Under the pieces are notes generated by a model that saw only the letters and a program-made list of their open reading frames with translations, had not been told where the DNA came from and did no database searches. From Plasmodiophora brassicae (Eukaryota), in the NCBI GenBank assembly GCA_036867785.1, contig CP145410.1, positions 310,001-374,000 on the forward strand: a stretch of 64,000 nucleotides of DNA, in the 5' to 3' direction. Position 1 is the first letter of the stretch. Every line of letters starts with the position of its first letter. The translations under genes were made by a program, and so were the position numbers. This document shows, piece after piece, positions 11,445-20,662 of this stretch.

Positions 11445-12467
11445 CTACAGGAGGGGCATTTCGGGCAGGATATTCGTGTTGCCCGTCAGTTCCGCATTCA
11501 GGCTGATCTCAGCCAGGATCCTGTAGCGCGGGAACGATCAGCCGGCATCGAAAGGCAAGGGCACAACCGGACGTGTGTACCTCTTGAGAGACGCGTTCTC
11601 GTCCAGCAACGCAAGGTTCTGAGCTCTCAGCTGGGATATTACGTCAGCCAAGGCTGGGTCGTCGGTGGCGGCGGCGGCCTTAGCCGGCGGGGGAGCTGGC
11701 CGCTCGGTTTCGGTCGTGTCCTCGGACCGACTGCCTGCAGAGCGGGGCGCTTTCGGTATCGATTTCCGCATGGCACGCTTCTTCTTTGGCGGCGGCGGTG
11801 ATTCGGTGATGGTGACCGGGCGCCGCCGGTGCCCTCCGCCATCCCGTTCGCCCCATGACTTTCGCGCCAGGCGCCGCGGCCGTACTGGAGTGCGGTCAGC
11901 AGGCCTGCTGTCGTCATCGTGTTCGCGCCCAGCCTTGCCCGACGACTTCCGGGCGATCCGCTTCGCCCGACTTGATGACCCGGGCGTCGGGGCGGCACGG
12001 TTCGGCGTTGAATTGCGGCTGGTCGTCAGTACGTTGGGTTTGCGCGCCGGAGACGACCGCTTCGAGGAGGAGGACTTTGGCGTCCTCGCTGCATCGCTCG
12101 AGCGACGACGAAACTCGGCCAACTTCTTCGGGCAGTTCAGGTGTTCTATAGGCTCCCAGGTATTGTCTGACGCAGCGCTGCGAGACAGAACGGCAGTCAG
12201 TTCACCCGAGTTCGCAGGAGCTCCTGGCAGCCACGCTGTCTTACTATCCCTTCCATTTAATCTGTGCCAATGCGCATCCGTCAGTTGTGGGCGGGCCGAG
12301 AACCAGGCCGGCAGTTCACCGACCTCGTACTCGACGCGTTTCGTCTCCGGGTTCGATCGTCGCCCCACGATCCTCTCGACCTGGCGCCGACAAATTTGGT
12401 ACCCTGACGCATCAACATATCCGCTGACGTGCCTGACCTCAAAGTCTTTGGACTCGACGTCGGACAT
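11445..12467 (-). CDS. Chromodomain protein (HP1/CBX-type N-terminal chromodomain, basic low-complexity middle, C-terminal coiled coil)
   Basis: Spliced MSDVESKDFE/VERIVGRR...VEYE/IKWKGY/AASDNTWEPIEHLNCPKKLAEF with the aromatic cage residues F, W, Y. Several ARKS motifs downstream. Confidence 0.88.
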
Positions 12468-12605
12468 GGCGCGATGGGCGCGCACCGCAAACGAGGCGAG
12501 CGGCGAAGACGGCAACCTTTTGCGCGCGCGCGGAGTCCTGGAGGGGGCTTCCTGTTGGTTACGTCTAGTGATGCGGGTATTTGAAATACGTATTTTAAAT
12601 AGGTA

Positions 12606-12820
12606 CAACCACCGGAAGGTATATTTGGATCACAGGGACACAATTTATGGATCACGGGGACACAAACATTGGATCACGGGGACATAATTTTTGGATCATG
12701 GGGACACAATTTTTGCATCACGCGGACCAAATTGGCGGATCGGGCGGACAAGTTAAAATGGATCACCGGGACGGATTTCGTGGATCGTTGGGCCAAATCA
12801 AATGGATCAGGCGACCGCAT
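12606..12820 (+). repeat. Left TIR containing about 9 tandem ~22-bp subrepeats (TGGATCACGGGGACACAATTTT-like)
   Basis: GGATCAC(A/G)GGGACAC units recur every ~22 nt and become more degenerate inward. Confidence 0.9.
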
Positions 12821-12996
12821 GTGGCGAGGCGAATGCATCAACGTTGAGCGTCGCAAGTCGTCAGAGTCGGCATGCAAATAGTGGTAAGCGTAATGTACTT
12901 GACGGGCAGCATCACATTGGCAATGTGATTCAGTGATTCACAGCAGAAGGAGACGAACCGTCTCATCTCATTCGGCGTCGGCGGGGGCGACCAGCG

Positions 12997-13864
12997 ATGT
13001 ACCCTGAACGGATCCCGAGGTTGGATCCCACGATCGCCGCAGACGCGAGAATCGGTCAGGTCGAATTCACGTCGGCGGCTACAGAAGCACGACGCGCTGC
13101 CGACAAACGGCGCTTAGACGACCAGTGCCGGGTCGTGCGTGAGAAGTCTCGGCAGCGTGCAACGCAGCAATTGCTCCCACTACAATGCGCTGTTGATCAC
13201 GTTCGCGCCGTTGCTGACAGAAAGATAAGTCGCTACCATGAGTTGGCGCCTGATCGTCAACAGTAGTTCGAGAACGAGGTCGCCCAGTGGAGTAACCGAC
13301 TACTAGCCAGTGACCAGGGAAGTGGGGTGCTCTCAGTCCACCGTATCGCGGCACTTGAACGAGGTCTCGAATGCTCACGACGGTATTCCGTGAGGAGCGC
13401 GCCGTAAGCTATCCGATGTCCAGCTTGACGCAGCAGCCCGATTTATGTTTGTCTGTCCTGGGTCGACTCTTGCACTTGCGAAGAAGTTCCTGAAGCTATC
13501 CTACGATGTCGACGTTTCTGAAAAAACATTGAGCGGGCACTTGGGCGACCGAGTTGGGTTCCGACTTGGCGATTTTAAGTCGTTCCACATCAGGCGTAAT
13601 GCGCAAGAGACCATCGATAAGCGGCTGGATGTCGATGATCTCCTGAACAGTTATCTACCACATTTCTACGAGGAGTACACACCGGACCACTGCCAGCACC
13701 TTCGCGACGTTTTCGGTTGCTCCCGTTTAACCAAGGATTTCATTGAGAACTGGTACGGCGCTCAAACGCAGACGAGTTCATCGGGACCCGGCGACGACAA
13801 TGACAACGCTCCTCAAGGACCACCTGGAGAACCTGCCACTGACTACCACCCACCTCTCGCCTAG
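12997..13864 (+). pseudogene. Degenerate IS630-like transposase; HTH region retained, DDE domain apparently deleted
   Basis: REVGCSQSTVSRHLN...*GARRKLSDVQL...STLALAKKFLKLSYDVDVSEKTLSGHL..VGF...RNAQETIDKR joins directly to a C-terminal-like tail. In-frame stops at 13264, 13304 and 13391, plus a frameshift. Confidence 0.7.
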
Positions 13865-13889
13865 ACACCTATCCTGTTGAGGGACACAA

Positions 13890-14059
13890 TAAATGCATCA
13901 TGATCCATTCACGTTGTCTGTCTGATCCATCATTTTGTTCCACGTGATGCAAAAATAATGTCCCCATGATCCAAAAATTGTGTCCCCGTGATCCAATGTT
14001 TGTGTCCCCGTGATCCATAAATTGTGTCCCTGTGATCCAAAAATACCTTCCGGTGGTTG
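13890..14059 (-). repeat. Right TIR containing about 7 inverted copies of the same ~22-bp subrepeat
   Basis: TGTGTCCCCGTGATCCA units, the reverse complement of the left array. Confidence 0.9.
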
Positions 14060-14227
14060 TATTTAAAATACATTTTAAAATACCTCCCGAATTTTGGGTC
14101 ATTTTTTATATTTTAAATTGCCCAGCATGCAGAGCAGGCCCTAGCTGCCAGGCGACCATCACAGGGCATCACGGGGTCGTAGACTCGTGGTACGTGGGTC
14201 CATGGTCCGTTCCAAGTTCGCGAGGCA

Positions 14228-14403
14228 TGTGCCGGCTCCAAGCTATAAGACAAGAATAGCTGTGATCCGGCTAGGCCGCCCTAAGAATGACGGACATGCA
14301 CGGAGTGCGCACGGAGTCCGCACGGCGTCCGTGGGAGCTGCAGGTCGGGGACACAGACGATTATACTACACGGCTGATATACCATCACCGTTGGGACGTC
14401 ACA
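14228..14403 (+). repeat. 5' LTR
   Basis: TGTGCCGG...GACGTCACA; identical by eye to 19317-19492. Contains TATAAG and a 3x GCACGG(A/C)GT repeat. Confidence 0.97.
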
Positions 14404-14450
14404 GAGATCTCTTGAACATCCTTTCGGGGAAGGTTTCAAAGAAGGACGCG

Positions 14451-17400
14451 ATGGTGGCCACCGCGCAGGAGATGCTGCTGGAAGATGACGTCGATGATCG
14501 ACAACAAGGACAGAGCGTGCAAGGCTCAACGATCGTCCTGCAGATGAACAAGGCGCCGACCTTGAAAAGCATGGACCGCAAGGCCGTCACGACGTTCATG
14601 GCCGAGCTGAAGACGTATCGGAATCACTTCCGGGACGATCCGAACGCCAAGGGCCAGATCCCGCGGTCAGTGAGGAGTATGATCGACCCCGGTCTGCTCA
14701 GGGCGATCTGCAAGTGGGAACTCGGCAAGGACGCCGAGGGGGTGACGGAGAGCGACCTGATGGACTGGATGAAGAGGCATCTGGAGCAGGATCGCTCGAC
14801 GGACGCGAACATCGACCGGGAGATGCGGAAGCTGGCGATGAAGCTGACCATCACCACACCAGCGGCAAGGGTCGTGAACCTCGTGCAGCAGTACGAGGAA
14901 TTGGTCGCGCGCAACGGGTGGCAGGACCTCTTCACGTCCCGCGAGGGACGGAAGAACCTGGTCAAGTACCTACTGGGTGCTGTGCGCCCATCCGGTTTAC
15001 AAGCGCTCATGCGGACCCTCGTCATGAAGCGCCAGACCGATCTCCAGAAGGACCCTTTGGAATTCTATCGGGTGCTGAAGGAACGGGCTGCATCGTATGA
15101 GGAGACGATGTTGTACATGGAGCCGGGACGTGAGGATGGCAAGGGGAAGGGAAAGGTCAAACCCACCCCGAAGAAGCGAGGGGCGCAGACGGATGAAGGA
15201 GGCGGTGGAGGCCGGGACACGAAACGACACCGGAAGGACCTGCGATGTTTCAACTGTGACGAGGTTGGACATCCAGCGTTTCGTTGCCCGAAGAAGCCTA
15301 CCAAGAAGCAGGTCGCAGACCTGCTGAAGGATCGCCGCAAGGGGCCAACGGGAAGGGATGGACCCCGTAAGGCCAAATCTGATAAAGATGACGACTTGTC
15401 AGAGTACCCATGGCTTCCAGTGGTAGGAAGAGTGTCGGAGGGGGCGCAGAGGACAGGGGACCAAGTAGTCGTTCGTGTAAACGGACATGAGGAAGACTAC
15501 GTTGGGGTTCTGGACAGTGGAGCGACATCGGTTGACGTTCTGATGCCATTGACCATAGCGCGCGAGCTAATGGAGCGGGACCCATTGTTAACAATGGAGA
15601 ACCTCCAGAAGCCGGAAACGTTCTGTCTGGTAGACAGAGAAACGAAGCACACAGCCTACCATGTGATGATACTGGATCTGGGACTGACGACGACGGCAGG
15701 CGAACTGATCACTCGCCGGCGCCGATGCCTTGTATGGGACATTCCTGAAAAGGAAATAATCCTAGGGGAGAGGCTGTTGGACGACTTGGGTATCCACCCA
15801 AAGAAGGCCCTGGACGTACTCATTAAGAGCACGCCGAAGAAGGGGAATGACGTCATGGATGAAGTGCACAATATGGCAAACGAGATGCCACCTCTCTGGG
15901 AAGGGGAGGAAGAGGAAACAGAGGATGTGAGGATCGGAACCGATTCCACAGACTCCCTGGAAAGGGAGATGGACGGGATGGCCGAGCGCGCATTGAGGAA
16001 TGGCCTACCGCAAGCGATGGGGAAATCGCTTCGGAAACTCGTCAGAAGATATAGGGACGTTTGGCGTATGAGCATTGGACCTGATGGTCCAGCCAGGGTT
16101 ACACCATTTGTCACGGAGCTGAAACCGGATGCGGAACCTTACAGGTGCCGAGCCAGAAAGTACAGTATGGAGGACAGTGCTTTCATGGAGGAATTCGTCG
16201 CCCAATTGAAGAAGTATGGCCTAGTCGTTGAAAACTACAACGCGAAGTGGGCTTCACCGGTGGTGGTGGTGACGAAGCCAGGGGGCGGAAAGCGGTTCTG
16301 TGTTGATCTCAGAGCTGTTAATGCCAAATGTGTCGCCGTGGCGTGGCCTATGCCACATCAGGAGGCGATACTCAGGAACCTGGCAGGCTCGAGGTTCTGG
16401 TTTAAGCTAGATGCGTTCAAAGGCTTCTGGATGATGCCGCTGGATGAAGCGTGTCAGGAGATCTTCTCCTTCATGACAGATAAGGGGGTGTATAAGCCAA
16501 CGAGGTCGATGCAGGGGGGAATGAACTCCGCCCCTCAGTATCAAGGGAGGATGTTTGAGGTGTTCGGGGAACTTATGTTCCACAAACTAATCATATGGAT
16601 CGATGATCTAATGGGGCATGCCCAAAGGGAGGATGATTGGTTCCGAACGTTGGAACGGACTCTGATGCTAGCCGAACGGCACAGCATCAAGTTCAACGTG
16701 GAGAAGTGTGAGCTCTTCACAACAGAGGTTCGGTTCTGTGGAAGGATATTCACGCCAGAAGGGGTAAGGCACGATCCTGCTAGGATTGAGGCTTTAATGG
16801 CGATACCACAGCCGAGAACGGCAAGGGCCTTGCAACAATTCCTTATGGCAACTCAGTGGATGAGTAGGTCCATCCCTGAGTACAACAGGAAGGTACACCT
16901 GTTACAGAGGATATACGAGGATGCAATGAAGGACCAACCTGGCAGGACGAAAGCCATTGCCAGGAGGGTGCGATTGTGCAAATATGGATGGTCACCCGAA
17001 CATGCGCTGGCATTCGAGAAACTGAAGATGGCAGTGGCGGACACGGTCCAACTAGCGTACCCGCGAAAGGACCGGATCCAATGCCTATTCTCAGATGCAA
17101 ATGAGGTTAACAGCGCGGCGGTAGTCACACAGATTCCGCCTGAGGACTTGGGTAAACCAGTGCATGGGCAGCGACATGAACCGCTGGGTTTCGTCGGACA
17201 CAAGTTCGCGGGCCCAGAGCGGAACTGGTCCACGGTGGAGAAGGAAGGGTTCGCGATCAAGGATGGGATTGACAAACTGGACTATCTCGTTACAACCAAC
17301 GAGCAGTTTCGTTTGTTTACCGATCATAGGAATCTCGTGAGGATATTCTCACCAACGGACGTGTCAAAGCCAACGGCGCAGAAACTGCAACGATGGGCAC

Positions 17401-19118
17401 TGGACATACAGAGGGTCAACTACGTCATTGAACACATTGCGGGGGAGGACAATGTGTGGTCGGATCTTATGACGCGGTGGGGTGCACCGGACGGTGGGCC
17501 TGATGACCAGCACCTAGAGGTACGCACGATCAGGAGGATAACGCTTCAAATTGAGGACGGATATCGGGTACGGCCGTTACAAAGGAAGGAATTCCAATGG
17601 CCGACCGTGGACGAAATCCGTAAGGCTCAGAGGAAATGGCTCAGAGGAACGAAACGACCGAAGAATGGTGATGATCTCTTCGTCACAGGGAAGGGACAGG
17701 TGATCATACCAGACGAATGCAACGAGCTGAAGCTGCAGCTATGCGCTATTGCTCATGCGGGCGGAAACAGTGGGCATCTAGGACTGAAGGCCTCGTTGAG
17801 GAAGTTGGGGGAGTTCTGCCATTGGGCACACTGCGATGAGGACATGAGGACGTTCTGCAACGCGTGTTTGAACTGTCTACCGACAAGGGGCGGGGTTAGG
17901 ATTCCCAGGCCATTGGGAACAGCTGTTCATGGTGTTAGGCCGAATCAGGTGATTCACTTGGATTGGCTATACATGATGGCGGCTCAGAAGGGCGGAAGAC
18001 ATGATCTGCAATGGAACCTGATAATCAGGGATGATCTGTCTGGCATGGTCAAGATTACTCCTGACCATACACCCAATGCGGAAACCACTGTAGAGGCACT
18101 GCTCGAATGGAGGGCTATCTTCGGAACGTTTGAGTTGATGGTGTCAGACATGGCGTCTTGCTTTCTGGCAAACGTTGTGAAGGAACTGGCGCGTCGATGT
18201 GGATTTGCTCATCACCCGACTGTTGCCTATGGGCATTACAGTAATGGATCAATTGAGGTGATCAACAGGAACTACTTGCAACTAGTCAGAGCACTTCTGT
18301 CTGAATTGCAGTGGGACAAATACGATTGGCCATGGTTGAACCACAACATTGAACACACGATCAATCACAGGTCGCAGGCGCGTACCAACGGGAATGCGCC
18401 AGTGACAGTGATGATGGGACGTCAACCAGACAACCCGCTGAAGCAAGTGTTCAAGAGGCCAGGGGATGAGAAGTATGGGGAAGCTACACTCTCAAAGGAG
18501 CATATTCAGGAGCTAGTCATGCAATTGCAGACGTCGCTGAATGAAATGCACAAGGGAGCAGTGCAGCAATCGAAGAAAATCCGAGCCGTACACAGGAAGA
18601 GGAGCGACGCGTACCGACGAGCAACTGCACCGAACTTTCAGATCGGTGACTATGTACTCATCGGATTGCCTGAACCGGGTAAGGTTCCGGGCAAGAAGCT
18701 CTTTATGAAGTGGCGGGGCCTATATCAAATAACTGATAGCCACGAGAACTACACCTACGAGGTGAGGAATATGTTCAATGAGACGGACACTCGAACCGTT
18801 CACGGGGACCGCGTTCGCCTCTATGAACATGGCAAAGTGAATGCCACTGAGGAACTGAAGCGACAGATGGATTATGACAATGAGCGTTTCGCCATTGAAG
18901 TCTTCAAGGACTGCAGGCACAGTCCGGAGACAGGGGAATTGGAATTGTTGATCGGATGGAAGGGTTTCTCTGAAGCGGAGGATTCATGGGAGCCAATCTG
19001 CAGGTTGGCGATGGATGTACCGAAGCTGGTGAAGGCACATGCCGCCAGGATGAGGAAGGAGAAACATCACCTTGCTGATGAGGTTAAGGAGTTACTTAAG
19101 GCGGAAGGAGTCCAGTAG
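14451..19118 (+). CDS. Gag-Pol polyprotein (Zn knuckle, protease, RT, RNase H, integrase, chromodomain)
   Basis: CFNCDEVGHPAFRC; LDSGA; RT with KLDAFKGFW and WIDD; RNase H with FSDAN, EKEGFAI and TDHRNL; integrase H-H-C-C zinc finger plus D..D-35-E; chromodomain LLIGWKGFSEAEDSWEP. First ATG after the LTR is at 14451. Confidence 0.97.
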   Translation: MVATAQEMLLEDDVDDRQQGQSVQGSTIVLQMNKAPTLKSMDRKAVTTFMAELKTYRNHFRDDPNAKGQIPRSVRSMIDPGLLRAICKWELGKDAEGVTESDLMDWMKRHLEQDRSTDANIDREMRKLAMKLTITTPAARVVNLVQQYEELVARNGWQDLFTSREGRKNLVKYLLGAVRPSGLQALMRTLVMKRQTDLQKDPLEFYRVLKERAASYEETMLYMEPGREDGKGKGKVKPTPKKRGAQTDEGGGGGRDTKRHRKDLRCFNCDEVGHPAFRCPKKPTKKQVADLLKDRRKGPTGRDGPRKAKSDKDDDLSEYPWLPVVGRVSEGAQRTGDQVVVRVNGHEEDYVGVLDSGATSVDVLMPLTIARELMERDPLLTMENLQKPETFCLVDRETKHTAYHVMILDLGLTTTAGELITRRRRCLVWDIPEKEIILGERLLDDLGIHPKKALDVLIKSTPKKGNDVMDEVHNMANEMPPLWEGEEEETEDVRIGTDSTDSLEREMDGMAERALRNGLPQAMGKSLRKLVRRYRDVWRMSIGPDGPARVTPFVTELKPDAEPYRCRARKYSMEDSAFMEEFVAQLKKYGLVVENYNAKWASPVVVVTKPGGGKRFCVDLRAVNAKCVAVAWPMPHQEAILRNLAGSRFWFKLDAFKGFWMMPLDEACQEIFSFMTDKGVYKPTRSMQGGMNSAPQYQGRMFEVFGELMFHKLIIWIDDLMGHAQREDDWFRTLERTLMLAERHSIKFNVEKCELFTTEVRFCGRIFTPEGVRHDPARIEALMAIPQPRTARALQQFLMATQWMSRSIPEYNRKVHLLQRIYEDAMKDQPGRTKAIARRVRLCKYGWSPEHALAFEKLKMAVADTVQLAYPRKDRIQCLFSDANEVNSAAVVTQIPPEDLGKPVHGQRHEPLGFVGHKFAGPERNWSTVEKEGFAIKDGIDKLDYLVTTNEQFRLFTDHRNLVRIFSPTDVSKPTAQKLQRWALDIQRVNYVIEHIAGEDNVWSDLMTRWGAPDGGPDDQHLEVRTIRRITLQIEDGYRVRPLQRKEFQWPTVDEIRKAQRKWLRGTKRPKNGDDLFVTGKGQVIIPDECNELKLQLCAIAHAGGNSGHLGLKASLRKLGEFCHWAHCDEDMRTFCNACLNCLPTRGGVRIPRPLGTAVHGVRPNQVIHLDWLYMMAAQKGGRHDLQWNLIIRDDLSGMVKITPDHTPNAETTVEALLEWRAIFGTFELMVSDMASCFLANVVKELARRCGFAHHPTVAYGHYSNGSIEVINRNYLQLVRALLSELQWDKYDWPWLNHNIEHTINHRSQARTNGNAPVTVMMGRQPDNPLKQVFKRPGDEKYGEATLSKEHIQELVMQLQTSLNEMHKGAVQQSKKIRAVHRKRSDAYRRATAPNFQIGDYVLIGLPEPGKVPGKKLFMKWRGLYQITDSHENYTYEVRNMFNETDTRTVHGDRVRLYEHGKVNATEELKRQMDYDNERFAIEVFKDCRHSPETGELELLIGWKGFSEAEDSWEPICRLAMDVPKLVKAHAARMRKEKHHLADEVKELLKAEGVQ

Positions 19119-19304
19119 GCTAGTCATGCTTTTTTCCCGGATGCGCGCTGGGTTATTTTAATGCCGACGGCCATGTGACGACAGAAGCCAAAACTGTGTT
19201 CTACGAAGATTGAGACTTAATTATGTTAATTAGACTATATTAAGGAGAAGACATGATTAGGATACACCACCACTGAAGACACCTGCAAGGAGGAGCATTT
19301 CGTT

Positions 19305-19316
19305 GAAGGAGGGGAA
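19305..19316 (+). other. Polypurine tract (plus-strand primer)
   Basis: GAAGGAGGGGAA immediately 5' of the 3' LTR. Confidence 0.9.
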
Positions 19317-19492
19317 TGTGCCGGCTCCAAGCTATAAGACAAGAATAGCTGTGATCCGGCTAGGCCGCCCTAAGAATGACGGACATGCACGGAGTGCGCA
19401 CGGAGTCCGCACGGCGTCCGTGGGAGCTGCAGGTCGGGGACACAGACGATTATACTACACGGCTGATATACCATCACCGTTGGGACGTCACA
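19317..19492 (+). repeat. 3' LTR
   Basis: Direct repeat of 14228-14403. Confidence 0.97.
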
Positions 19493-19589
19493 GGCATGCA
19501 GTTTGCGTGCTTACGCTTGTCAGTGCCGAGTGTCGACCGACGCCGGAGCCCGGAGACGACGTAGTCCCGACGCCGATGGGTCGTACTTA

Positions 19590-19840
19590 AGCGTGAGTGC
19601 CCCCGAGATAGCATTCATGAGCAGTTCAAACGGATTCCGAAACCTGCCGGTTGCGCTTTGGATCAAGCAGCGTGCAATCAGTGCTCCGACCGTGTTCCAT
19701 ACTCCAAGCAAACTATGGATCGTCATGCGAGTACAGGCCGGACTGACGAGCGCAACTTACCCATCGAGCATTCTTGGTCAGTACAGTACCTGGGCAACTT
19801 CGACTTCGAGGAAGTTGTCGAATTAGAGGAATGGTTATAA
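19590..19840 (+). pseudogene. hAT transposase remnant (BED zinc-finger-like N-terminus fused to a short tail)
   Basis: PRDSIHEQFKR...QAACNQCSDRVPYSKQTMDRH matches the BED pattern (aromatic..F, A.C..C, M.RH) and lies inside the hAT termini. Confidence 0.6.
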
Positions 19841-20662
19841 CCGGCCGCAACGAACGTGACTGGAATATACGTACTGCTATCGGCGTCGCTATGTGCCGCT
19901 GTGCTGTGGTAATGGTATTTCTGAATAAAAAATATTCGAGTATATTTTAAAATGCATTTTAAAATATTTAAAATATTCGAAATTCCCAAAATATTTTAAA
20001 ATACAACACTAGTTACGTCGCTTACGTTACAGGCCAGCACTGTACTCGTCAGCCCACGTGCCGCTGCTCCTGCAACGATGGTTTCGTTTGCTAGCTTGCT
20101 GACAGGTTCGGGAACCGCACTGGCAGGCCAAGATACACGCGGGATCCCTGTACCAATAACGACCAGGAAACCATGTTGGTCGATAAAGCACCTGACCAGG
20201 TATCGGAGTCATTGCCGAAGTTGTACAGAAACGAGGTATGCTCACCTATGGCGATGGGCTGGACGGTCACCTGTGGATCTCGGTGCTGAGAGGACAAACA
20301 GGAACGATTCGCGTGGCGAGCGTTCGACGTTGGGAGCAGCCATTGCCACTTCGAGCGGCCGTTGTCGTCGAGTGAAGGAAGTTGAGGACATAGCAGAGGT
20401 TGTCGACAGACTGGTCGTCGACGATGGGCTTGCACATTTCTCCAGCACTGTTCCTTGCGATACAGTTGACATTAATCGGGGCGCACTTGAATCGGAGCGC
20501 AGCAGACATTGCATGGGAAACGTCTGGAACCGAAGGTCACTGCCATGGTCTTCTCGCTGCTCGGCACGAACGTTGCCAACTAGCAATCTCGGACGCCGCG
20601 TGACGTCGTGGCCGTCCGTGAATATGCCCTCCAACTGCTTCGAAGGGGGCTACGTCTATTGT

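What the first reader, a model, noticed from the sequence alone, without database searches (positions are those of the whole stretch)
12558..20019. Three transposon classes in one unit: a ~720-bp hAT shell carrying an IS630/Tc1-like element and a gypsy retrotransposon
Seen in sequence: an exact 8-bp duplication GTTACGTC flanks termini TAGTGATG/CAACACTA 7.4 kb apart. Inside are a TA-flanked TIR element (12606-14059) and a GGCA-flanked LTR element (14228-19492). Removing both inserts and their TSDs leaves 721 bp with matching AT-rich subterminal palindromes. Established: 8-bp TSDs and TAG/CAG-type short TIRs mark hAT elements. Inference: in a genome with almost no intergenic space, this small element acted as a landing pad. 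Both hAT ends are intact, so the whole composite could in principle be moved as cargo by a trans-acting hAT transposase.
Basis: partly seen in the sequence, partly recalled or inferred. Interest (0 to 1): 0.78.

Follow-up and report, generated by a model that had tools for sequence, protein, structure and literature searches.

The report
Three stacked transposons beside chromodomain gene
A small gene-less cut-and-paste transposon of the clubroot parasite was later hit by two unrelated jumping elements; the nest is real and cleanly resolved, but it is ordinary, occurs once, and lacks the enzyme needed to move it as a block.

Summary
The anatomy is confirmed to the base. The 721-bp shell is a non-autonomous hAT-type element. 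Four uninterrupted copies lie elsewhere in G000 (Plasmodiophora brassicae), each with its own perfect 8-bp duplication; the closest differs at 3 of 721 bases. The TA-flanked insert is a deletion derivative of a 2,290-bp IS630/Tc1-type element with an intact DD38E transposase. The LTR element is a young gypsy with identical LTRs, one of 29 loci.

The cargo idea is unsupported. The composite occurs once. No autonomous element shares the shell's ends or subterminal motif (25 of 25 motif hits lie in shells or one remnant). The Tc1 insert cuts the left end at base 40. Nesting is common here: 6 of 23 LTR pairs are over-long, and another three-layer nest lies on C4.

No empty site appeared in 4 runs, three of them possibly the source DNA. 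One lead: the stack sits 90 bp upstream of a chromodomain gene, and one presumed-RNA contig links that gene's spliced 5' end to the Tc1 transcript. The scan reached a like reading in another genome (e1-7787507), none on this stretch.

The parts
12558..12565 (.). Left 8-bp target site duplication of the hAT shell
   Evidence: the other four copies carry other perfect 8-bp duplications
12566..12605 (+). Shell, left 40 bp: short TIR, two AT-rich subterminal motifs, and the TA used by the inner element
12606..14059 (+). Internally deleted IS630/Tc1-type element (lost 125 bp and 711 bp relative to the 2,290-bp copy at G000:C4:422142-424431); long TIRs built of 22-bp repeats; TA duplication
12802..13864 (+). 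Broken transposase gene of the inner element: exon 1 from ATG 12802, intron 12884-12943, stop at about 13264, catalytic DDE region deleted
   Evidence: the parent ORF has PF13358 DDE_3 at E 8.6e-15 and D278/D363/E402
14060..14227 (+). Duplicated TA and shell middle piece (rest of the left subterminal region), ending in the left GGCA
14228..14403 (+). Gypsy 5' LTR (176 bp, TG...CA)
14403..14412 (+). Perfect 10-bp palindrome where the primer-binding site would lie
14451..19118 (+). Single gag-pol ORF of 1,555 aa: zinc knuckle, reverse transcriptase, RNase H, integrase, weak C-terminal chromodomain
   Evidence: RVT_1 E 1.5e-13, RT_RNaseH 2.4e-16, Integrase_H2C2 3.2e-7, Chromo 9.4e-4 below cut-off
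19317..19492 (+). Gypsy 3' LTR, identical to the 5' LTR, preceded by a purine-rich tract
19493..20011 (+). Right GGCA and shell right piece (515 bp) with AT-rich subterminal motifs and right TIR
19586..19741 (+). Probable remnant of the BED zinc-finger region of a hAT transposase (CxxC...H kept, last Cys absent)
   Evidence: weak alone (23 of 986 shuffles score as high), stronger through relatives
20012..20019 (.). Right 8-bp target site duplication
11538..12467 (-). Neighbouring host gene (outside the element): chromodomain protein, ATG 90 bp from the duplication, with three introns near its 5' end

Best explanation
This is an ordinary nest made in place by three independent insertions. (1) A non-autonomous hAT-type element of about 720 bp, a deletion derivative that keeps its ends and a scrap of the BED-finger region, was moved in trans into the short gap upstream of a chromodomain gene and duplicated 8 bp. 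Shown: copies and duplications. Inferred: the trans-acting enzyme. (2) An IS630/Tc1-type DD38E element inserted at a TA in the shell's AT-rich left end; it now lacks its catalytic region. Shown: duplication, parent copy, deletions. Inferred: that TA density favoured the site. (3) A currently expanding gypsy inserted 166 bp further on and duplicated 4 bp. The shell came first (shown by nesting); the gypsy probably came last (inferred from divergence). Both inserts persisted because they landed in DNA that was already dispensable (inferred). The composite is most likely stranded: no cognate transposase is found in this genome and the left end is split at base 40.
For: Four uninterrupted shell copies with distinct perfect 8-bp duplications, at 3, 12, 29 and 65 differences from the window copy. 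Parent of the inner element on C4: 20 substitutions in 1,451 aligned bases, intact 566-aa ORF. Gypsy: LTRs 0 of 176 different; nine other copies 99.68-99.87% identical; 4-bp duplications at 9 of 9 parsed copies of 10; 52 LTR starts make 23 pairs and 6 singles. Composite unique: the LTR-shell junction occurs once, and 4 of 5 shells are empty. No partner: left-end pattern 6 hits (5 shells, 1 without similarity to the shell), right-end pattern 5 hits (5 shells), motif 25 of 25 hits in shells or the C2 remnant; the one intact hAT-type element examined has other ends. Base rate of nesting: 6 of 23 LTR pairs are over 6 kb apart against about 5.09 kb normal; 2 of 9 other copies sit inside other transposons, one in a mariner-like gene that itself abuts a gypsy reverse transcriptase. 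Precedent: LTR and DNA transposons inside maize Ds elements (PMC3260210, passages).
Against: Under uniform insertion, the chance that this gypsy family hits a given 721 bp is only about 0.0008-0.002, so selection or targeting must contribute, and I did not separate the two. The empty site was not seen in 4 of 4 runs laid. The BED remnant has no Pfam hit on its own. Genome searches score only the best candidates, so a diverged partner could be missed. PMC3260210 (passages) says that size alone does not stop Ds transposition.
Confidence: 0.87

Rival explanations
1. The composite is a mobile unit: a hAT transposase acting in trans can move, or has moved, the 7.4-kb block with both inserts as cargo.
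For: Both tips and the 8-bp duplication are perfect, and the shell family moved recently (3 of 721 differences to the C11 copy). hAT-type transposase genes exist in G000 (25 PF05699 matches; one intact 770-aa ORF). Large Ds elements can still transpose (PMC3260210, passages).
Against: One locus only. No autonomous element with these ends or motif. Only 40 bp of the left end stay next to the tip, while Tol2 needs 200 and 150 bp and Tag1 about 100 bp (PMC10368747, passages) and Ac about 200 bp.
Confidence: 0.05
2. The shell is a specific landing pad: its AT-rich palindromic ends or chromatin state actively attract other elements.
For: The shell's ends are the AT-richest stretches of the window, with about five times the window's TA density. 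The C4 parent also sits at the end of a TA-rich run. LTR elements show a weak preference for palindromes in plants (PMC6911290, abstract). Two inserts lie within 166 bp of each other.
Against: 4 of 5 shell copies are empty. The gypsy site lies in the 48% GC middle piece, not in the palindromes. Gypsy target sites vary and include other transposons and sites with no recognisable transposon nearby.
Confidence: 0.15
3. The stack is kept because it now supplies the 5' end or promoter of the neighbouring chromodomain gene. This is compatible with the best explanation and adds a function.
For: The insertion is 90 bp from the ATG. In presumed-RNA run X15, one 1,463-nt contig joins the gene's spliced exons, the shell's left 40 bp and the inner element to 13903. 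It has a minus-strand intron and a plus-strand intron and no differences from the window copy, so the two transcripts seem to overlap head to head. The left junction is present in 4 of 4 runs. Tc1/mariner ends carry promoters active in distant hosts (PMC6446368, listing and start of abstract).
Against: One run, unstranded contigs, RNA status a guess. The overlap could equally be a host promoter within the 90 bp firing into the transposon. Three of the four runs may be the source DNA, so shared presence does not show fixation. The words 'outward' and 'bidirectional' do not occur in PMC6446368.
Confidence: 0.25

Closest known systems
Maize Ds elements enlarged by nested insertions (Du et al. 2011, PMC3260210; passages read)
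   Same: Small non-autonomous hAT element with an 8-bp duplication that carries later LTR-retrotransposon and DNA-transposon insertions.
   Different: Here the host is a protist with a 25-Mb genome, two superfamilies sit in one 721-bp shell, and no cognate autonomous element was found.
hAT transposons with BED finger and subterminal repeats (Hermes, Tol2, Tag1, Ac; PMC10368747, passages read)
   Same: 8-bp duplication, short imperfect TIR, asymmetric ends with repeated AT-rich subterminal motifs, BED-like CCHC region in relatives.
   Different: No transposase; TIR only about 8 bp; the nearest relatives in G000 are DUF659-type (weak Pfam match) with no sequence hit to solved hAT structures.
IS630/Tc1/mariner elements; DD38E Intruder (PMC7731502, abstract)
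   Same: TA duplication, TIRs, HTH plus DDE_3 transposase, DD38E spacing.
   Different: Intruder is described as animal-restricted, 1.5-1.7 kb and close to DD34E/Tc1. This element is 2.3 kb with a 566-aa or longer transposase whose nearest relatives are Phytophthora, Nothophytophthora and unnamed proteins at 31-41% identity. The shared spacing is probably convergent (no tree was built).
Ty3/gypsy elements with a C-terminal chromodomain (chromovirus-like; name recalled)
   Same: LTRs TG...CA, gag-protease-RT-RNase H-integrase order in one ORF, purine tract, weak chromodomain.
   Different: 4-bp duplication and a 10-bp palindrome in place of an evident tRNA primer site.

Membership tests
hAT non-autonomous element (shell) | 8-bp target site duplication | tested here: met
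   5 of 5 copies have perfect 8-bp duplications of different sequence
hAT non-autonomous element (shell) | Short TIR beginning (C/T)A(A/G)NG (consensus recalled, from no call) | tested here: met
   TAGTG at both ends, 7 of the first 8 bases matching
hAT non-autonomous element (shell) | Repeated subterminal motifs at both ends | tested here: met
   AT-rich motif at both ends; 25 of 25 genomic hits in shells or one related remnant
hAT non-autonomous element (shell) | Derivation from a hAT transposase gene | tested here: inconclusive
   BED-like remnant: no Pfam hit; 23 of 986 shuffles score as high, C1 relative 1 of 939. The C2 remnant shares 82-84% DNA with this segment and carries a fragment 43% identical to the intact 770-aa DUF659-type protein, E 2e-13
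hAT non-autonomous element (shell) | Cognate autonomous element with the same ends | tested here: not met
   None in G000; no longer protein shared words with the remnant (weak evidence). Not required for membership, but required for mobility
IS630/Tc1/mariner (inner element) | TA duplication and TIRs | tested here: met
   Window and C4 copies; single TA in empty shells
IS630/Tc1/mariner (inner element) | HTH plus DDE_3 transposase with catalytic triad | tested here: met
   Parent copy: PF13358 E 8.6e-15, D278/D363/E402. Deleted in the window copy
DD38E Intruder family | Phylogenetic placement next to animal DD34E/Tc1 | not tested
   Spacing DD38E in 7 of 7 aligned proteins, but nearest relatives are oomycete and unnamed proteins; no tree built
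Ty3/gypsy LTR retrotransposon | LTRs and RT-RNase H before integrase | tested here: met
Chromovirus clade | Chromodomain at the integrase C-terminus and RT clade membership | tested here: inconclusive
   PF00385 E 9.4e-4, below the cut-off; no RT tree built
Cargo-carrying composite transposon | Same composite at more than one site with different duplications | tested here: not met
   1 locus in G000; other isolates only through contigs of 4 runs

The most novel reading that the evidence does not exclude
The nest has replaced the native upstream region of a chromodomain (methyl-lysine-reader-like) gene. The gene's mRNA now starts inside the Tc1 element's left TIR and runs through the hAT tip, head to head with the spliced Tc1 transcript. 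A stack of transposons would then control a likely chromatin reader in a crop pathogen, and isolates with and without the stack would differ in its expression.
Probability: 0.2. Interest if true: 0.55.

Novelty: new member of a known kind. Interest (0 to 1): 0.25.

Why it matters
As a nest it matters little: the pattern is in print for maize Ds, and it recurs in this genome. Its use is practical. It defines three families by exact ends (a 5-copy hAT element, a DD38E IS630-type element with an intact parent, a gypsy at 29 loci that still looks active), and these can serve as isolate markers. If the RNA overlap holds, it would be a case of transposon-supplied transcription of a chromatin-reader gene in a compact protist genome, testable with existing assemblies and stranded RNA data.

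Tried and rejected
Empty site: no joint from the left flank to 20012/20020 in 4 of 4 runs laid. Contigs drop rare variants and three runs may be the source DNA, so this is no evidence of fixation. No listed holder is on record as RNA; X15 is a guess. The left-flank pattern found 0 matches in metagenome contigs. The runs cannot show whether X1, X3 or X7 carry the two inserts at this locus, because joints that skip them also come from the empty shells elsewhere. Autonomous parent: none by end patterns, motif, BLAST against the 25 PF05699 loci (about 3.2 kb each) or a longer-protein search. The sixth left-end hit, on C3, gave no BLAST match to the shell. One search was circular (the target was in the profile) and is not used; one search replaced it. 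The solved-structure search with the 770-aa protein gave only one chance hit at E 0.28. The bacterial promoter scan does not apply to this eukaryote. No complement of the primer-site region (6 nt or more) was found in the LTR, so simple self-priming on the LTR is not supported. Sequence look-ups of earlier notes for the shell and the inner element, and the 'near' look-up, were empty. Paper searches listed no description of these particular elements; that covers only this library and these terms.

Full report
Observation. The 8-bp word lies at 12558-12565 and 20012-20019, and the termini match at 7 of 8 bases. The TIR element spans 12606-14059 between two TA, with 148-nt arms 92% complementary and built of 22-bp repeats. 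The LTR element spans 14228-19492 between two GGCA, with LTRs identical at 176 of 176 bases. The three remaining pieces sum to 721 bp. The 8-mer alone is weak, with 4 copies on the + strand against about 1 expected, so the test is the rest of the genome.

Context. The window is G000:C2:310001-374000, in a 25.28-Mb genome of 20 contigs. The gene next to the insertion matches a protein named as a Plasmodiophora brassicae chromo-domain protein (P0008), so the organism is the clubroot protist. A pangenome preprint puts transposons at 11-14% of each genome of this species, dominated by Gypsy and Copia (10.64898/2026.10.14.759018, passages).

The shell. The right piece matches four other loci over most of its length. 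There the three pieces are contiguous: C11 721 bp, C15 722 bp, C7 685 bp and C4 739 bp, with 3, 12, 29 and 65 differences from the window copy, and each has its own perfect 8-bp duplication. This proves a mobile element and fixes both insertion sites. The ends are the AT-richest stretches of the window and carry a repeated motif. Bases 19586-19741 read like a BED-finger region and align with the N-termini of hAT-type proteins in G000. Alone this is weak: there is no Pfam hit, and 23 of 986 shuffles score as high. A C1 relative at 58-59% identity scores better (1 of 939 shuffles). A C2 remnant shares this segment at 82-84% and has a similar left end and a fragment 43% identical (E 2e-13) to an intact 770-aa DUF659-type protein. 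That protein lies in a 2,811-bp element with TIRs and an 8-bp duplication. I file the shell as a non-autonomous hAT-type element.

No partner. The left-end pattern has 6 hits (5 shells and 1 site without similarity to the shell) and the right-end pattern has 5 hits, all shells. The subterminal motif has 25 hits, all in the five shells or the C2 remnant. G000 has 25 matches to the hAT dimerisation domain, but the stretches around them gave no match to the shell longer than 29 bases. The intact element examined has different tips and a different motif. The inner element also sits 40 bp from the left tip: two motif copies stay with the tip and the others are pushed 1,456 bp away. Described hAT elements need about 100-200 bp at each end (PMC10368747, passages; PMC3260210, passages). 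Against my reading, the latter paper says that size alone does not prevent Ds transposition, and the genome searches score only the best candidates.

The inner element. One near-identical copy exists, 2,290 bp at C4:422142-424431, also between TA. It encodes an uninterrupted 566-aa ORF with HTH and DDE_3 domains (E 8.6e-15) and a DD38E triad. The window copy lacks 125 and 711 bp, including the catalytic region, has an early stop, and differs at 20 of 1,451 aligned bases. The nearest proteins are from Phytophthora, Nothophytophthora and unnamed assemblies at 31-41% identity, and all 7 aligned are DD38E. A profile search gives 45 clusters at E 1e-30 or better. Of 49 close proteins, 31 cover the triad and 17 of these are DD38E. 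This is probably not the animal Intruder family (PMC7731502, abstract); no tree was built.

The gypsy. It has one 1,555-aa ORF with RT, RNase H, integrase and a weak chromodomain. Thirteen other full-length matches were listed with 25 of 71 candidates scored; nine of them are 99.68-99.87% identical. Nine of 10 copies could be parsed, and all nine have identical LTRs and a 4-bp duplication. The 52 LTR starts make 23 pairs and 6 singles. The LTR-shell junction occurs once.

Is the nest special? Under uniform insertion, a hit by this family in a given 721 bp has a chance of 0.0008-0.002, so some bias is at work. It is not peculiar to the shell. Four of 5 shells are empty. Six of 23 LTR pairs are over 6 kb apart against about 5.09 kb normal, which points to inserts inside them (I did not read these inserts). 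Two of 9 other copies sit inside other transposons: one in another gypsy, and one in a mariner-like gene that abuts a gypsy reverse transcriptase, a second three-layer nest. The shell's first 110 bp hold 14 TA against 26 per kb in the window, which makes it a fair target for a TA-specific element. Maize Ds elements carry both LTR and DNA transposons (PMC3260210, passages).

Other samples. Four runs were laid as contigs. The left junction is covered in all four and the right junction by listed contigs in two; none shows the empty site. Three runs are flagged as possible sources of this DNA and contigs drop rare forms, so this is not evidence of fixation.

The host gene. The duplication lies 90 bp upstream of the ATG (12467, minus strand) of the chromodomain gene. 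The spliced reading taken from run X15 agrees with the start of P0008. In X15, one 1,463-nt contig joins the gene's spliced exons, the shell's left 40 bp and the inner element up to 13903, with no differences from the window copy. It skips one minus-strand intron and one plus-strand intron (12884-12943), and the latter joins two transposase exons in frame. Two opposite transcripts therefore seem to overlap at their 5' ends. Either the gene starts inside the transposon, or a host promoter fires into it. This rests on one unstranded run whose RNA status is a guess.

Verdict. The finding is a real, cleanly resolved nest of three known transposon kinds, built in place and most likely immobile as a unit (confidence 0.87). 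It is a new member of a known kind, interest 0.25. The only route to a higher score is the possible transposon-supplied start of the chromodomain gene (probability about 0.2).

Noticed in passing
window 14403-14412: The gypsy has a perfect 10-bp palindrome where the tRNA primer site should be, as earlier notes report for other gypsy elements of this genome.
   Followed up: partly
L033 (G000:C4:366815-375079): A second three-layer nest: this gypsy inside a mariner-like transposase gene that abuts another gypsy's reverse transcriptase.
   Followed up: partly
L017:553-2250 (G000:C4:422142-424431): Intact long IS630-type DD38E transposase with N- and C-terminal extensions; nearest named relatives are oomycete proteins at about 41%; a small lineage of some 45 clusters, perhaps undescribed.
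   Followed up: partly
L098:2783-5593 (G000:C2:1497282-1500092): Apparently autonomous 2,811-bp hAT-type element: 770-aa open frame, TAT-starting TIRs, 8-bp duplication. Related elements on C2 (L100) and C13 (L099).
   Followed up: partly
L089:3850-4675 (G000:C13, about 975850-976675): Another short hAT element with TAGGG tips and an 8-bp duplication that keeps the dimerisation domain.
   Followed up: no
window 12245-12261: 17-nt micro-exon that supplies the core of the host gene's chromodomain.
   Followed up: yes
window 12655-13313, run X7: A contig identical to the window copy of the inner element that carries extra letters at the 125-bp deletion point: a less deleted, window-type copy may exist in that sample.
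   Followed up: no
L008 (G000:C2:666592-669653): Rearranged remnant of a sister hAT family: similar left end, inverted duplication of the BED-like segment, and a catalytic-domain fragment.
   Followed up: partly
window 35791-41424: 1,877-codon open frame with 66-bp and 75-bp tandem repeats and no Pfam match.
   Followed up: no
L036 and L039 flanks: Gypsy copies next to a Myb/SANT ORF with a Harbinger-like neighbour, and next to a long ORF that looks Mutator-like; both transposon labels are by eye and recalled, without Pfam support.
   Followed up: no
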